Below, piece after piece: positions 27,436 through 30,863 of a stretch of DNA of 40,201 bases (positions are counted from its first letter, which is position 1; each line of letters begins with the position of its first letter). The notes beneath the pieces are model-generated. The model saw only the letters and a program-made list of their open reading frames with translations. It did no database searches and was not told the DNA's origin. Source of the DNA: a virus (Duplodnaviria > Heunggongvirae > Uroviricota > Caudoviricetes); the IMG/VR virus record IMGVR_UViG_2744054909_000002, positions 1 through 40,201 of that record; one strand, 5' to 3'. A program made the translations under genes and the position numbers.

Positions 27436-27669
27436 CTAATAAAACCAGTCGTCAGCGCTTTCCCAGGTATCCTGGAGGATTGATTCAATTTTCTTTTTAT
27501 CGTCCTTGTCACCACCAAAAACACTTAACCCATCGGCCCCGGCACGGCGGATTGTGAGCCTGCAATTGTCATAGTGATCATTCAGGCGCTTAAGCAGTTC
27601 TTTCTCCAGTGCTGGTACTGCGCCTTTAGGAAGTTCTTTCATGCGATCAATGGTTAATTCAACTTTCAT
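27436..27669 (-). CDS. DinI-like protein
   Basis: MKVELTIDRMKELPKGAV..ILQDTWESADDWF matches DinI pattern (..ETWESADDWF) as recalled; ATG 27669 with SD. Confidence 0.75.
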   Translation of the reverse strand: MKVELTIDRMKELPKGAVPALEKELLKRLNDHYDNCRLTIRRAGADGLSVFGGDKDDKKKIESILQDTWESADDWFY

Positions 27670-27770
27670 AATGGCCCCCATTGCATTTACTGTGTTTTTA
27701 TACAGTATACCTATGCGCGGAAATGATCAACGCTTTAAGAGCACAAATTGTTAATTTTCTGTCAGTAGTA

Positions 27771-27797
27771 AAAAAAGAAAACCCGCCGTAGCGGGTT
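27771..27797 (-). terminator. Rho-independent terminator (minus strand)
   Basis: Stem aacccgc/gcgggtt with loop cgta, followed on minus strand by UUCUUUUUUU. Confidence 0.6.
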
Positions 27798-27814
27798 GAA
27801 TTAGCGATGTTTTA

Positions 27815-27955
27815 TTACGCCGCTATTTGTTTCTGCTGACAAAGCTCCTGTAGGTTAGCCCTAACCAGCGCCTCAGCGAGCTGATGATTGGACAGCATTA
27901 ACGCAATGGGTAATAGAAACCACAGAATGCACGAAATGGCGGTGGTATTCGCCAT
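27815..27955 (-). CDS. Possible 46-aa hydrophobic peptide; C-terminal 20 aa are paralogous to the methyltransferase-remnant C-terminus
   Basis: MANTTAISCILWFLLPIALMLSNHQLAEALVRANLQELCQQKQIAA; no clear SD, may be a recombination remnant rather than a gene. Confidence 0.25.
   Translation of the reverse strand: MANTTAISCILWFLLPIALMLSNHQLAEALVRANLQELCQQKQIAA
27830..27879. repeat. 50-bp direct repeat, copy A (44/50 identical to copy B)
   Basis: tttctgctgacaaagctcctgtaggttagccctaaccagcgcctcagcga. Confidence 0.8.
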
Positions 27956-28066
27956 CTGTGACAGGTTGAATATTGCTCGAATTGTATTGTTTGCACTTTA
28001 ACGTTTCTGTTGTAGTGCCGGATGCATGCCACCGTATGTTCAGGACGATGGCATGCATATTATGGA

Positions 28067-28303
28067 TTACGATTTATCCATTCCCAGGGGATTAGGGTGA
28101 ATTCCACTTACATGCCAGAACGCATGCTCTCTATTCAACTGATTTCCCTTTGGTATCAGGAAGCCATACGTCCCAGATTTAAAAGTGGCATGAGCGCAGA
28201 TTAGACTTTCTCCTTCAAAGCTATACTCAGTCCCTTCAGGGATTAGAGAGTCAGTCTTGATCAGGTGAACAGTTCCGTTGATAGGGATCATGTAATGGTG
28301 CAT
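28067..28303 (-). CDS. Hypothetical accessory protein (78 aa) with its own promoter
   Basis: AGGAG SD 6 nt before ATG; extended -10 promoter upstream; AT-rich insert between direct repeats. Confidence 0.55.
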   Translation of the reverse strand: MHHYMIPINGTVHLIKTDSLIPEGTEYSFEGESLICAHATFKSGTYGFLIPKGNQLNREHAFWHVSGIHPNPLGMDKS

Positions 28304-28332
28304 TTTAGGCTCCTCGTGTTGTGAAGAGCCTA

Positions 28333-28341
28333 ATTATATCA
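28333..28341 (-). promoter_or_regulatory. Extended -10 promoter element TGATATAAT (minus strand)
   Basis: Perfect TGnTATAAT about 30 nt upstream of the 78-aa ORF start; -35 weak. Confidence 0.45.
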
Positions 28342-28402
28342 GGTTTGAATCTACGTCATTGAAGTAGCAGGATTTGTTACACCATGTTCTGAAACTCGGA
28401 CA

Positions 28403-28585
28403 TTAAGCTGCGATCTCTTTCTGCTGACAAAGCTCCGGTAAATTAGCCCTCACCAGTGCCTCGGCGAATGGCGGCGGAACTGCGTTGCCACAACGCGCAA
28501 CCTGCTTGTCCTTCGCGTACTTCTGCCCCCGATAGTCCTGATCGATGATGTACCACTCTGGGAAGCCCTGCCAGTTTGGCGTTGT
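28403..28585 (-). pseudogene. 3' remnant of a DNA methyltransferase gene (C5-MTase-like motifs IX/X), lacking a start codon
   Basis: Open frame encodes ..WQGFPEWYIIDQDYRGQKYAKDKQVARCGNAVPPPFAEALV.. (QGFP-W and GNAVPP motifs); upstream in-frame stop; a separate short frame-1 ORF starts at 28643. Confidence 0.45.
28418..28467. repeat. 50-bp direct repeat, copy B
   Basis: tttctgctgacaaagctccggtaaattagccctcaccagtgcctcggcga. Confidence 0.8.
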
Positions 28586-28644
28586 TCAACCCTGGGTTGT
28601 TGCGCAGGGCTGCCAGCACCTGCTCACGGATTGTTATGTTCATG

Positions 28645-29334
28645 TCACACCATCCCGTTCGACTTGTTGCGGTTGTACTTGGCCAGCAGCAGCTGGATCG
28701 GCGTCGGCCCTTGCTCGGCAGCTGGTGCGGCAATAGCCCGGCGTACCGGCGGCACTGGCTTACCCTCGGTGACGCGCCTTTCCCACATGTCCAGCAGATC
28801 GCCTGCCTCGCGTGCCAGTTCACCATGCGTTAACTGGCGCTCGGTGCTGCGGTGGCGCAATTCTACGCAAATGTGGTACATGACCGGCTGCGACCATGGA
28901 AATTGCTCGCTGGAGATGAATTCGAACGAGCTGTTACGCCAGTCCCAGTATTCGGCGATCACCTGGTCAACGTTGACGCCCAGCGCGCCGCCGCTCTGCT
29001 TGCACCAGGCGACGAACTGGCCCGGCGACGGCAGGAATGGGCGCTCCTGGCGGCGGGCAATGCGCATGCCGGCATCGACCTGAGCCATGGTGTGGATCCC
29101 GTTCTCCTGAAACGCCAGCAGCCACTGACGGCGGAATTCGTTCAGGTCTTCCTGGGTGCGGAAGTTCGCCATGCTGGCCGGGAACGCGGCGCGCAGCTCG
29201 TTGAACAGCTTGTTGAATACCTGCGCCACCTGCTCGACCGGCGCGCACTCCTGGTACTGCTCTGGCAGGTTATGGGCCATGCGGCTCATCTGCTCGCGGT
29301 CGTGGTTACGCATCTGCTCTGCAAGAGATTTCAT
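28645..29334 (-). CDS. P: Replication protein P (helicase loader)
   Basis: Close match to lambda P N-terminal half as recalled (..DREQM.R.A.N.PEQY.., ..ARRQ.RPFLPSPGQFVAWC..). Confidence 0.85.
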   Translation of the reverse strand: MKSLAEQMRNHDREQMSRMAHNLPEQYQECAPVEQVAQVFNKLFNELRAAFPASMANFRTQEDLNEFRRQWLLAFQENGIHTMAQVDAGMRIARRQERPFLPSPGQFVAWCKQSGGALGVNVDQVIAEYWDWRNSSFEFISSEQFPWSQPVMYHICVELRHRSTERQLTHGELAREAGDLLDMWERRVTEGKPVPPVRRAIAAPAAEQGPTPIQLLLAKYNRNKSNGMV

Positions 29335-30239
29335 CGGATCACCCCATAGGCCCAGTCAGTGTTGTTGAAGTCCAGATCTGGCTTGACAGCGCGCTGCTCA
29401 CCTCCGGCGTTACGCTGCATTGTCAGCTTGTCCCACTGCTTACGCAGGCTTTCGGGACTCAGGATGTTGGTCTGCCAGAAGTGGTGTTTGCTAGCCCAGT
29501 CATACAGCGCGCAGATGTCCTGGTGCGACCGGTCGTCTATCTGGCGCATCAGGCGAACAGTGTTAGACCAGGAGGTCATGTCCGGGGCTTTGCAGGTTGG
29601 GTTAATCAGCTTCACCCTGGAGGAAATCCACTTAGCTGTCTCGAGGTCTTCAGCAGAGCCCCACTTCGCACCGGATGGTGTGTAGACCGCAGCTTCAGGA
29701 TGAGTTGATAAAAATTTCTTCAGACGTGCGTCAGAGGATTCGTCAGAATTCTCGGACGAAGATCTTTTAATACTGTTCTTGTTCTTGTATTGGGTGTCTA
29801 CCGTTTTCGGGAAGGTTATTCCTGATTTCGGGAAGGATTTTCCCGTTTTCGGGAATTTTCTTCCCGTTTCCGGTTTGTCTAAAATCCATGCTGAAAGGTC
29901 AGTGTTTACACCGACGATTTTCATCATGCCCTGCTTCTGTGAAAAGATGATTTTGCGTTCTGCGAGAGACTTAAGCGCGTCCGATACATGCGTATCGCTC
30001 AGGCCCGTAAGCTCGGCAATAACCGTATTTGTCACGCGGTCCTGTTTCTTGTTCCAGCCGTAGGTAAGCCAGATCACCGCCTCAAAACATTGCCATTCCC
30101 GGCCTGACAGTCTCAGGCGAGGCTTAAGCTGTTGGATCTCGTTAGCGACCTTGGTATACCCGTTCGACAGGTCGGCCATACGACCTCCCGGTTGTTCGGT
30201 TTTATTTGGGAAATTGATTATTTCAGCGGTGTTTGACAT
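29331..30239 (-). CDS. O: Replication initiator protein O
   Basis: N-terminus MSNTAEIINF and C-terminus ..KPDLDFNNTDWAYGV resemble lambda O; internal FPKTGKSFPKSG repeats encoded by iterons. Confidence 0.85.
   Translation of the reverse strand: MSNTAEIINFPNKTEQPGGRMADLSNGYTKVANEIQQLKPRLRLSGREWQCFEAVIWLTYGWNKKQDRVTNTVIAELTGLSDTHVSDALKSLAERKIIFSQKQGMMKIVGVNTDLSAWILDKPETGRKFPKTGKSFPKSGITFPKTVDTQYKNKNSIKRSSSENSDESSDARLKKFLSTHPEAAVYTPSGAKWGSAEDLETAKWISSRVKLINPTCKAPDMTSWSNTVRLMRQIDDRSHQDICALYDWASKHHFWQTNILSPESLRKQWDKLTMQRNAGGEQRAVKPDLDFNNTDWAYGVIR
29801..29880. repeat. Replication origin iterons: four repeats (consensus ccgttTTCGGGAAgg) at 20-21 bp spacing inside O, with adjacent AT-rich tract at 29760-29800
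   Basis: Repeat cores at 29808, 29829, 29849, 29869; arrangement as ori-lambda inside the O gene. Confidence 0.65.
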
Positions 30240-30323
30240 ACTGTTCTCCGCAATTACGCACTGTTTTTGCACCTGAAAGCCGTTGGTGTTCGAGCACCGC
30301 GGCTTTCGCCATTTTTGAACCGG

Positions 30324-30863
30324 TCATATAGCCCCCAGCATAATCTGCACCATTTCCATCAACGGACCGGTTAACCCAGGGTCAACGCGATACATCTCCA
30401 CGATCCCCTCGCTCAACTCTTTCAGCTTCTGATGACGTGGCGCATCCATTGCGACAGCAATCTTCGCTTCGCTGGTTTCCTTCTCCAGCCTTGCCAGACG
30501 AGCCATTACGTTGTCTTCTGGTAGCAGACGATTGCGGTATTCAATCGGCAGGACAGCGAGGATTGCCGGAGTCAGCTGGCGAACGTTTTCGCGGTACCGT
30601 TCGCTGTTGAAATGGTTATCCAGAAAGCGGAAAAGCTTCTGACGCTGTCGGCTGAGGTCATCAGGGAAAGTGATCTCGTCTCCCCCTTGAGCCTGGTACT
30701 CTTCGATGATCAGAGCAGAAACGACATCCTGACCATCTACACCCGCCCACGCACGAACGGCATCGCGGATCTGGTCATGTTTATCTACCGAGACAGGTTG
30801 ATTGCGATTTATCATCGCAGCCGTTTGATATCCGCTATTTTGATGAAGTGATAGTGACTGCAT
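30324..30863 (-). CDS. YdaT-like protein (CII-position regulator)
   Basis: Position between cro-like gene and O; motif QLTPAILAVLP resembles Rac YdaT as recalled. Confidence 0.4.
   Translation of the reverse strand: MQSLSLHQNSGYQTAAMINRNQPVSVDKHDQIRDAVRAWAGVDGQDVVSALIIEEYQAQGGDEITFPDDLSRQRQKLFRFLDNHFNSERYRENVRQLTPAILAVLPIEYRNRLLPEDNVMARLARLEKETSEAKIAVAMDAPRHQKLKELSEGIVEMYRVDPGLTGPLMEMVQIMLGAI

What the first reader, a model, noticed from the sequence alone, without database searches (positions are those of the whole stretch)
27771..28467. Self-contained accessory transcription unit in the nin region, flanked by 50-bp direct repeats
A perfect extended -10 promoter TGATATAAT (28341..28333, minus strand) is followed by an AGGAG SD and a 78-aa ORF (28303..28067), then a 46-aa hydrophobic ORF (27955..27815), then a terminator (27797..27771). 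The unit is AT-rich and bracketed by two 50-bp direct repeats (27830-27879 and 28418-28467, 44/50 identical). Both repeat copies encode the same C-terminal peptide (..EALVRANLxELCQQKxIAA), so the insert appears to have been captured by recombination at the 3' end of a methyltransferase-like gene. A promoter-gene-terminator unit expressed independently of the phage operons is the classic form of lysogenic-conversion or defence/anti-defence cargo.
Basis: partly seen in the sequence, partly recalled or inferred. Interest (0 to 1): 0.6.

Follow-up and report, generated by a model that had tools for sequence, protein, structure and literature searches.

The report
Self-transcribed small prophage accessory gene
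A lambda-like E. coli prophage carries a small add-on gene with its own promoter and terminator (a "moron"), lying between an intact and a decayed copy of a DNA-methyltransferase gene end; it is real and conserved, but its function is unknown and the same unit is already annotated in phage mEp237.

Summary
The direct repeat is longer than reported: 66 nt, 83% identical. The 78-aa ORF is a real gene. It belongs to PHROG 30079, a very small family confined to enterobacterial prophages. Homologues at about 40% identity align without gaps, and dN/dS is about 0.13-0.25 where it can be measured. All 35 family loci have a TGnTATAAT extended -10 element 37-45 nt upstream of the ATG. One of them has an unrelated promoter sequence. 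All five subfamilies checked have an AGGAG ribosome-binding site and a downstream intrinsic terminator. The promoter-gene-terminator architecture is therefore conserved.

The 46-aa hydrophobic ORF is not a gene, because its reading frame changes among close relatives. The left repeat is the true 3' end of a 650-737-aa C5 cytosine methyltransferase. That enzyme is full-length in relatives and reduced here to a ren'-'dcm stub by a 718-bp deletion. The right repeat is a decayed dcm pseudogene fragment. Two E. coli prophages lack the unit and carry one hybrid repeat.

Phage mEp237 has the unit at 99.7% identity, with the promoter and ORF already annotated. No sequence or fold relative points to a function. 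This is an ordinary moron with an orphan protein.

The parts
28405..28643 (-). ren'-'dcm fusion remnant. The first 26 codons of a Ren-like winged-helix gene are joined out of frame to the last ~62 codons of a C5 cytosine methyltransferase gene. The deletion junction is at the 9-bp microhomology GCAGGGCTT (28571..28563).
   Evidence: Alignment with mEp237 shows a 718-bp deletion. mEp237 gp44 is Ren-like and gp46 matches PF00145 positions 270-320 of 324.
28402..28467 (-). Direct repeat copy 1: the genuine 3' end of dcm (..FAEALVRANLPELCQQKEIAA-stop).
   Evidence: The same sequence ends full-length 649-737-aa dcm ORFs in L027, L029, L030, L036 and L038.
28333..28359 (-). Sigma-70 promoter of orf78: -35-like ATGACG (28359..28354), 15-nt spacer, TG (28341-28340), perfect -10 TATAAT (28338..28333). 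The transcription start is predicted near 28326.
   Evidence: Phage mEp237's depositors annotated it as a promoter. The block ATGACGTAGATTyAAAyyTGATATAAT is conserved upstream of homologues that share only ~52% CDS nucleotide identity, and L008 has an unrelated promoter sequence with TGGTATAAT.
28305..28333 (-). 5'-UTR stem-loop (arms 28333-28323 and 28315-28305) that pairs the GAGGAG Shine-Dalgarno (28315..28310). It is complete only in RNA that reads through from upstream, and is cut short in RNA starting near 28326.
   Evidence: dG -16.4 kcal/mol, z -4.9, against -2.1 kcal/mol for RNA starting at 28326. Present in 6 of 7 aligned 5' UTRs, but with no compensatory changes. This is an inferred feature.
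28067..28303 (-). orf78: a 78-aa soluble protein of 8.7 kDa, pI 6.3. It belongs to PHROG 30079 and is the same as mEp237 gp47.
   Evidence: Gapless alignment with 18 invariant residues among six members (14 among eight when a truncated 63-aa member is added), including Y4, P7, K16, P22, G24, Y46, G47 and P70-N-P-L73; C36 and H38 are invariant in all full-length members. dN/dS is 0.13-0.25 where dS is measurable. The AF2 model has pLDDT 79 and shows five beta strands and a C-terminal helix.
28022..28058 (-). 14-bp hairpin 9 nt after the orf78 stop codon, with no T-run. It is possibly a 3' stabiliser or a processing site.
   Evidence: I1. dG -21.8 kcal/mol, z -3.9. It is retained, with some mispairs, in diverged window-type relatives.
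27880..28066 (-). Non-coding 3' UTR / spacer 'X'. It contains the front part of the spurious 46-aa ORF (27955..27815).
   Evidence: Relatives differ here by a 56-nt indel and by 1-nt indels, and the open frame differs between variants. The ORF has no Pfam, PHROG, NCBIfam or PADLOC hit.
27814..27879 (-). Direct repeat copy 2: a decayed dcm 3' pseudogene fragment. A more diverged continuation runs to about 27912 in another frame (..HCVNAVQSS.. against ..RCGNAVPPPF..).
   Evidence: The same allele precedes the terminator and dinI in prophages that lack orf78: KL53, ECCWS199 and AR_0119.
27771..27797 (-). Intrinsic terminator that ends the orf78 transcript and shields the LexA-controlled dinI promoter downstream.
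   Evidence: Terminator-like sites follow the gene in every other subfamily: H6 32 nt after the stop, L015 132 nt, L008 127 nt, L012 201 nt.

Best explanation
The region is a moron, an independently transcribed accessory gene carried in the early-right (nin-side) region of a phi80/mEp237-type lambdoid prophage.

Shown: orf78 is a real protein-coding gene under purifying selection. It belongs to a very small family restricted to enterobacterial prophages. Every family member has an extended -10 promoter element, an AGGAG ribosome-binding site and a downstream intrinsic terminator. The unit occurs at two different genome positions and is missing from close relatives. The left repeat is the true 3' end of a C5 cytosine methyltransferase gene that normally precedes orf78. 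The right repeat is a decayed fragment of a second dcm allele that belongs to a 'dcm'-terminator-dinI module.

Inferred: host RNA polymerase with sigma-70 starts transcription near 28326 in the repressed prophage, without needing a good -35 element. The RNA runs about 530 nt to the terminator at 27797-27780. This RNA lacks the 5' arm of a stem that would otherwise bury the Shine-Dalgarno sequence, so it can be translated, while read-through RNA from the phage early operon would be translated poorly. The 8.7-kDa beta-rich protein has no catalytic or DNA-binding signature. It most likely acts by binding a host or phage protein, as its frequent neighbours DinI (RecA) and theta (Pol III epsilon) do. 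The two dcm ends arose when two dcm-bearing phages were joined by illegitimate recombination. They now give 66 nt of homology through which the unit can be lost.
For: Real gene: homologues at 39-43% identity align without gaps at 75-78 aa. dN/dS is 0.245 (L004 against L009) and 0.13-0.22 in the distant pairs where dS can be estimated. The protein matches PHROG 30079 at E 7e-49.

Autonomous unit: TGnTATAAT lies 37-45 nt upstream of the ATG in 35 of 35 loci, including the non-homologous promoter of L008. The promoter block stays about 81% identical where the CDS has fallen to 52%. Coding-strand terminators follow the gene in all five subfamilies. The mEp237 depositors independently annotated a promoter at this position.

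Added DNA: AR_0119 shares the window's ren'-'dcm deletion junction but carries a single hybrid repeat, copy-1 variants followed by copy-2 variants, and no orf78. KL53 and ECCWS199 have the dcm remnant, terminator and dinI without the unit.

Mobility: the L015/L044 subfamily keeps the same promoter but lies before xis/int, not after dcm.

Composition: orf78 GC is 0.40-0.44 against 0.58-0.59 for the adjoining dcm genes.

Ancestral layout: a full-length dcm precedes a 96-100% identical orf78 and the second remnant in L027, L029, L030, L036 and L038.
Against: There is no expression data of any kind. The promoter motif alone is within chance expectation for a 40-kb window, and its -35 element is weak with a short 15-nt spacer (one search finds no canonical promoter). 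The gene points the same way as the early operon, so it may also, or only, be expressed by antiterminated read-through. NCBI's PGAP pipeline does not call the ORF in the 32 complete E. coli genomes that carry it. The SD-occluding stem shows no compensatory substitutions and is absent from L008. The closest comparison (window against L012, 13 differences) gives dN/dS of 0.59, which is uninformative. DNA downstream of the AR_0119 junction is only 91.5% identical to the window overall, so its lack of the unit may come from exchange with another phage rather than from an intramolecular deletion. The protein-binding mode of action is an argument from size and lack of motifs, not from positive evidence.
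Confidence: 0.72

Rival explanations
1. orf78 is an ordinary early-operon (nin-region) gene. It would be expressed only during lytic growth by N-antiterminated read-through from pR, and the extended -10 motif would be incidental.
For: It has the same orientation as O, P and the nin genes and lies inside that operon. One TGNTATAAT is expected by chance in the window. The -35 element is weak.
Against: The extended -10 element is kept at the same distance in 35 of 35 loci, and L008 has one with an unrelated sequence. A terminator follows the gene in each subfamily. One subfamily sits in a different operon next to xis/int with the same promoter. In read-through RNA the SD would be buried in a -16.4 kcal/mol stem.
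Confidence: 0.15
2. orf78 is a functional partner of the phage C5 cytosine methyltransferase. It could, for example, inhibit methylation-dependent (type IV, McrBC-like) restriction, or modulate the methyltransferase. Its position after dcm would then be functional rather than historical.
For: The gene lies directly after an intact or decayed dcm in four of five subfamilies, even though the protein has diverged to 40% identity. These include full-length 649-737-aa enzymes in H6, L008, L027, L029, L030, L036, L038, L040, L041 and L043. From general knowledge: foreign C5 methylation makes DNA a target for McrBC, so an inhibitor would be a logical companion gene.
Against: The L015/L044 subfamily is not next to any methyltransferase. 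orf78 is intact and identical where dcm is reduced to 62-134 codons, as in the window and mEp237. The protein is only mildly acidic (pI 5.0-6.3), so it is not a DNA mimic of the Ocr/Arn type. It has its own promoter rather than being translationally coupled. There are no PADLOC or fold hits.
Confidence: 0.12
3. The unit is a two-gene module, for example a toxin/antitoxin or membrane-peptide pair, in which the 46-aa hydrophobic ORF is a second product.
For: An ATG-initiated 46-aa ORF with a hydrophobic N-terminal half lies between orf78 and the terminator.
Against: It has no SD. Its start codon falls in a 56-nt segment missing from L012, and 1-nt indels put different frames into the dcm remnant in L029, L030, L033 and L012. 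The H6, Citrobacter, L008 and L015 subfamilies have nothing equivalent. Its last 21 codons are simply the dcm remnant.
Confidence: 0.03
4. orf78 is not a gene at all but a chance ORF in decaying DNA next to a pseudogene, which would fit PGAP not calling it.
For: PGAP leaves the stretch unannotated in 32 genomes. The surroundings are full of gene debris.
Against: The length is conserved, the alignment is gapless and 14-18 residues are invariant at about 40% identity. dS is saturated while dN is about 0.5, and dN/dS is 0.13-0.25. PGAP does call the H6-type homologue (WP_016247098.1). The AF2 model is compact with pLDDT 79.
Confidence: 0.02

Closest known systems
Enterobacteria phage mEp237 gp47 (YP_007111420.1 / AFM76202.1) with its annotated upstream promoter; PHROG 30079
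   Same: The DNA is 99.7% identical across the whole unit, including both dcm ends, the terminator and dinI. The protein matches PHROG 30079 end to end.
   Different: mEp237 still has ren, a 65-aa ORF and a 134-aa dcm C-terminal fragment. The window lost 718 bp of that stretch. Neither record assigns a function.
Morons of lambdoid phages (Juhala et al. 2000; Cumby et al. 2012, PMC3594210), e.g. HK97 gene 15
   Same: Extra DNA relative to related phages, lower GC than its neighbours, and its own promoter and terminator, in a prophage (definition read; tests).
   Different: Expression from the repressed prophage has not been shown. No host phenotype is known. HK97 gp15 is a membrane superinfection-exclusion protein, whereas orf78 is predicted to be soluble.
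Prophage-borne DinI and theta (HolE-like) genes of Gifsy- and lambda-like prophages
   Same: These are small (77-85 aa), individually promoted genes in the same genomic slot and are frequent immediate neighbours of orf78. They are the model for a small protein that binds a host replication or repair protein.
   Different: There is no sequence or fold similarity to DinI (PF06183) or theta (PF06440). The orf78 promoter has no LexA box, unlike the adjacent dinI.
Companion genes of cytosine methyltransferases (Vsr next to E. coli dcm; anti-McrBC Arn of T4). Recalled from general knowledge.
   Same: A small gene placed directly after a C5 methyltransferase gene.
   Different: There is no similarity to Vsr or Arn in sequence or fold. 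The protein is half the size of Vsr, is not strongly acidic, has an independent promoter, and is not always linked to dcm.

Membership tests
Moron (independent accessory transcription unit in a phage genome; definition in PMC3594210) | Present as extra DNA between sequences that are adjacent in related phages | tested here: met
   AR_0119 (and WEM25, by the same 96.8% match) has the window's upstream junction but a single hybrid dcm end joined directly to the terminator and dinI. KL53 and ECCWS199 also lack the unit.
Moron (independent accessory transcription unit in a phage genome; definition in PMC3594210) | GC content differs from that of surrounding genes | tested here: met
   The unit is 0.435 and the orf78 CDS 0.439, against 0.565-0.626 upstream. 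In H6 and L008, orf78 is 0.40-0.43 against 0.58-0.59 for dcm. Caveat: the downstream dinI and orf82 are also low (0.46).
Moron (independent accessory transcription unit in a phage genome; definition in PMC3594210) | Own promoter and own terminator | tested here: met
   This holds at the level of sequence consensus and conservation only. An extended -10 element is present in 35 of 35 loci, and terminator-like sites are present in all five subfamilies.
Moron (independent accessory transcription unit in a phage genome; definition in PMC3594210) | Expressed from the repressed prophage | not testable with these tools
   No transcript or transcription-start data are available. This needs dRNA-seq or 5' RACE on a lysogen.
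PHROG 30079 (unknown function) | Full-length significant match to the family profile | tested here: met
   E 6.9e-49, residues 1-78 on profile positions 1-78 of 78. The H6, L008 and L015 homologues also match.
C-5 cytosine DNA methyltransferase (PF00145), for the sequence upstream of the unit | Complete catalytic domain (motifs I-X) | tested here: not met
   The window keeps only about 62 C-terminal codons (the GNAVPPP motif and the tail), out of frame with the ren start. The mEp237 fragment covers profile positions 270-320 only. Full-length enzymes exist in relatives.
Known anti-phage defence proteins (PADLOC-DB 2.0) | Match to any defence-system profile | tested here: not met
   No hits at E up to 1 for orf78, three homologues and the 46-aa ORF.
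Small hydrophobic toxin / second gene (the 46-aa ORF) | Reading frame and start codon conserved among relatives | tested here: not met
   The start codon is deleted in L012, and the frame differs in L029, L030, L033, L034 and L036.

The most novel reading that the evidence does not exclude
orf78 could be the founding member of a small protein family with a new fold, expressed constitutively from the prophage. It would either neutralise a host nucleic-acid surveillance system, for instance methylation-dependent restriction of DNA modified by the large phage Dcm it usually follows, or exclude other phages. A 5'-UTR stem would restrict its translation to transcripts that start at its own promoter.
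Probability: 0.15. Interest if true: 0.6.

Novelty: new member of a known kind. Interest (0 to 1): 0.3.

Why it matters
If expressed as predicted, orf78 is one more prophage moron. Morons are where lysogenic-conversion, exclusion and anti-defence functions have repeatedly been found. Its protein has no detectable sequence or fold relatives and recurs next to an unusually large phage cytosine methyltransferase, so it is a reasonable, cheap candidate for a phage-challenge, restriction or toxicity screen. The locus is also a clear worked example of lambdoid mosaicism. It shows a pseudogene fragment acting as a recombination handle, a deletion at a 9-bp microhomology, and a gene that PGAP leaves unannotated in 32 complete genomes. 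None of this changes current understanding.

Tried and rejected
**Searches for a function (all negative)**
- Sequence libraries: Pfam, NCBIfam, PADLOC and a PDB profile search gave nothing for orf78.

**Family size and range**
- The exhaustive HMMER scan of 1.84 billion representatives found only P0001, P0003, P0004 and P0005 as true relatives. P0006-P0010 are internally repetitive proteins whose scores are inflated by repeats. P0007 matches through its PPC-domain repeats, and orf78 itself does not match the PPC profile.
- The GTDB species-representative scan found no relatives.

**Other ideas tested and dropped**
- Rfam: only a sub-threshold chance hit on the terminator.
- An operator in the imperfect dyad CTACTTCA-A-TGACGTAG over the -35 region: the left half is not conserved in L015 and L044, so I dropped it.
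- The SD-occluding stem: no covariation support. I keep it only as an inference.
- The idea that the AR_0119 'empty site' proves an intramolecular deletion: weakened, because its downstream DNA is only 91.5% identical to the window.
- Literature on mEp237: nothing about this gene.

Full report
**Setting.** The window is a complete lambdoid prophage read on the minus strand. Around the finding the gene order is:
- O (29331-30272)
- P (28645-29334, PF06992)
- a short remnant
- the 78-aa ORF
- a terminator
- a LexA-box-controlled dinI (27436-27681, PF06183)
- an 82-aa ORF
- a DUF1367 gene

Megablast shows that phage mEp237 (NC_019704 / JQ182730) is 99.7% identical across the finding. Thirty-two of 5,426 complete E. 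coli genomes carry it at 99.8-100%.

**Checking the observation.**
- TGATATAAT lies at 28341..28333.
- GAGGAG lies at 28315..28310, six bases before the ATG at 28303, and the 78-aa ORF ends at 28067.
- The 46-aa ORF runs 27955..27815.
- The terminator hairpin at 27797..27780 is followed by a T-run (dG -12.8 kcal/mol, z -4.5).
- The direct repeat is longer than reported: 66 nt, 27814-27879 against 28402-28467, 83% identical.
- GC is 0.435 between the repeats, against 0.565-0.626 immediately upstream. The dinI and orf82 genes downstream are also low.

On its own the promoter motif is not beyond chance. One TGNTATAAT is expected in 40 kb, and the conventional -35/-10 scan misses the site because the -35-like ATGACG is only 15 nt from the -10. 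The case has to rest on comparison with relatives.

**What lies upstream.** In mEp237 the P gene is followed by a Ren-like winged-helix gene, a 65-aa ORF and a 134-aa C-terminal fragment of a C5 cytosine methyltransferase (PF00145 positions 270-320). The window has lost 718 bp between two copies of GCAGGGCTT. This fuses the first 26 ren codons, out of frame, to the last ~62 dcm codons. The 'methyltransferase-like gene' is therefore debris here. Several IMG/VR prophages carry a full-length 649-737-aa dcm ORF ending in exactly this sequence, followed by a 96-100% identical orf78 (L027, L029, L030, L036, L038). Copy 1 of the repeat is thus the genuine 3' end of dcm.

**Is orf78 a gene?** A word-indexed search of 5.8 billion proteins found only two near-identical clusters. 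An exhaustive HMMER scan of 1.84 billion representatives added two clusters at about 40% identity. A blastn hit to the promoter region led to a fifth type in E. coli H6 (WP_016247098.1). A profile search brought the total to seven clusters. All are 75-78 aa apart from one truncated 63-aa cluster. The full-length members align without gaps, with 18 invariant positions among six members and 14 among eight. These include Tyr4, Pro7, Lys16, Pro22, Gly24, Tyr46-Gly47 and Pro70-Asn-Pro-Leu73. Cys36 and His38 are invariant in all full-length members.

Synonymous sites are saturated between subfamilies while dN is about 0.5. Where dS can be estimated, dN/dS is 0.13-0.25. The protein matches PHROG 30079 (unknown function) end to end. 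AlphaFold2 gives a compact model, pLDDT 79 and pTM 0.64, with five beta strands and a C-terminal helix. This is a real gene, even though PGAP does not call it in the 32 window-type genomes.

**Is it an autonomous unit?** I extracted the flanks of all family loci.
- Every one of 35 loci has TGnTATAAT 37-45 nt before the ATG.
- In six of the seven aligned upstream regions, the block ATGACGTAGATTyAAAyyTGATATAAT and the AGGAG site are conserved, although the coding sequences share only about 52% nucleotide identity.
- In L008 the upstream sequence is unrelated yet still has TGGTATAAT.
- A coding-strand intrinsic terminator follows the gene in every subfamily: 32 nt after the stop in H6, 132 nt in L015, 127 nt in L008, 201 nt in L012 and 270 nt here.
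- The L015/L044 subfamily carries the same promoter but sits just before the excisionase and integrase genes, not after dcm. Promoter and gene therefore move together.
- orf78 GC is 0.40-0.44, against 0.58-0.59 for the adjacent dcm genes.

These are the sequence-level criteria for a moron as given in PMC3594210. Expression from the repressed prophage could not be tested. The mEp237 depositors had already annotated a promoter and a hypothetical gene here.

**The repeats and the 46-aa ORF.** Copy 2 is a dcm pseudogene fragment. BLASTP against the H6 enzyme extends the match about ten codons further upstream in a different frame (..HCVNAVQSSLAEALV.. against ..RCGNAVPPPFAEALV..).

Among close relatives the stretch between orf78 and copy 2 varies by a 56-nt indel and by several 1-nt indels. 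The indels remove the start codon of the 46-aa ORF or switch the frame that runs into the remnant. The 46-aa ORF is therefore a chance ORF across junk plus a pseudogene tail.

The copy-2 allele, followed by the same terminator, LexA box and dinI, occurs in prophages without orf78 (KL53, ECCWS199). L012 has orf78, the hairpin and its own copy 2, but a different terminator and different downstream genes. The most economical history is that a dcm-P-orf78 lineage was joined by illegitimate recombination to a lineage carrying dcm-terminator. The joint left a truncated second dcm end, and later exchanges took place downstream of it.

AR_0119 shares the window's ren'-'dcm junction but has a single repeat. 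That repeat carries the six copy-1 variants followed by the five copy-2 variants, with the crossover inside GGAGCTTTGTCAGCAGAAA, and there is no orf78. This is the product expected from recombination within the 66-nt homology. Its downstream DNA is only 91.5% identical to the window, so I cannot say whether the partner was the second repeat of the same genome or another phage.

**How it probably works.** The following steps are inferred.
1. Sigma-70 RNA polymerase recognises the extended -10 without a good -35 and starts transcription near 28326.
2. The transcript ends at 27797-27771. This also shields the LexA-regulated dinI promoter (box at 27707..27688) from constitutive read-through.
3. 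An 11-bp stem (28333-28323 with 28315-28305, -16.4 kcal/mol, z -4.9) would bury the Shine-Dalgarno in RNA coming from upstream. RNA starting at 28326 loses most of the 5' arm (-2.1 kcal/mol). The stem is present in six of seven 5' UTRs but has no compensatory changes. This translational gating is only a hypothesis.
4. A 14-bp hairpin after the stop codon (28058-28022, -21.8 kcal/mol) may stabilise the 3' end.

**Verdict.** The interpretation as a self-contained accessory unit is supported by comparative evidence. The 46-aa ORF and the 'capture at a methyltransferase gene' reading need the corrections given above. The unit is an ordinary moron that is already present, and annotated as promoter plus hypothetical protein, in mEp237. 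The open question is what its orphan protein does.

Noticed in passing
window 27688-27707 (minus strand), upstream of dinI 27436-27681: There is a perfect LexA box, TACTGTATAAAAACACAGTA, overlapping a TATACT -10-like hexamer just upstream of the prophage dinI gene. dinI is therefore a second, SOS-controlled, self-contained unit immediately downstream of the orf78 terminator.
   Followed up: partly
window 28563-28571 (deletion junction); mEp237 L001:4172-4882: The window has a 718-bp deletion relative to mEp237 between two copies of GCAGGGCTT. It removes most of a ren-like gene, a 65-aa ORF and part of the dcm fragment. The resulting 66-aa chimeric ORF is annotated as a hypothetical protein (WP_001299077.1) in E. 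coli genomes.
   Followed up: yes
window 28067-28303; e.g. NZ_CP020048.1 411225-411746: NCBI's PGAP leaves the conserved 78-aa gene unannotated in all 32 complete E. coli genomes that carry the window-type allele. It does annotate the H6-type homologue (WP_016247098.1).
   Followed up: yes
L004:1511-3499, L008:2950-4923; also L027, L029, L030, L036, L038, L040, L041, L043: The phage C5 cytosine methyltransferases that precede orf78 are unusually long at 649-737 aa. Pfam matches only the N-terminal ~120 residues and the extreme C terminus. This leaves a central region of about 450 aa unassigned, which could be a large or multiple target-recognition region.
   Followed up: partly
P0003 (142 aa, from the representative search): One protein cluster fuses the first ~82 residues of the cII/YdaT-like protein (window ORF 30324-30863) to residues 19-78 of orf78. 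This implies a deletion of about 2.2 kb, or a misassembly, removing O, P and the orf78 promoter in some genome.
   Followed up: no
L004:3886-3930 and L009:5270-5330: In the H6 and Citrobacter werkmanii prophages the orf78 terminator is followed at once by another extended -10 motif (TGTATAAT) and a DNA polymerase III theta (HolE-like) gene, and in Citrobacter by DinI as well. This slot holds a string of small, individually promoted genes.
   Followed up: partly
window 28022-28058 (minus strand): A strong 14-bp hairpin without a T-tract (dG -21.8 kcal/mol, z -3.9) lies 9 nt after the orf78 stop codon. It is kept, with a few mispairs and one double change, in diverged window-type relatives. Its role is unknown.
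   Followed up: partly
L045:1850-1941 (E. coli ECCWS199 prophage): PGAP annotates a 92-nt tRNA-Ile on the opposite strand, inside the early region of a related prophage, just upstream of the dcm remnant-terminator-dinI block.
   Followed up: no
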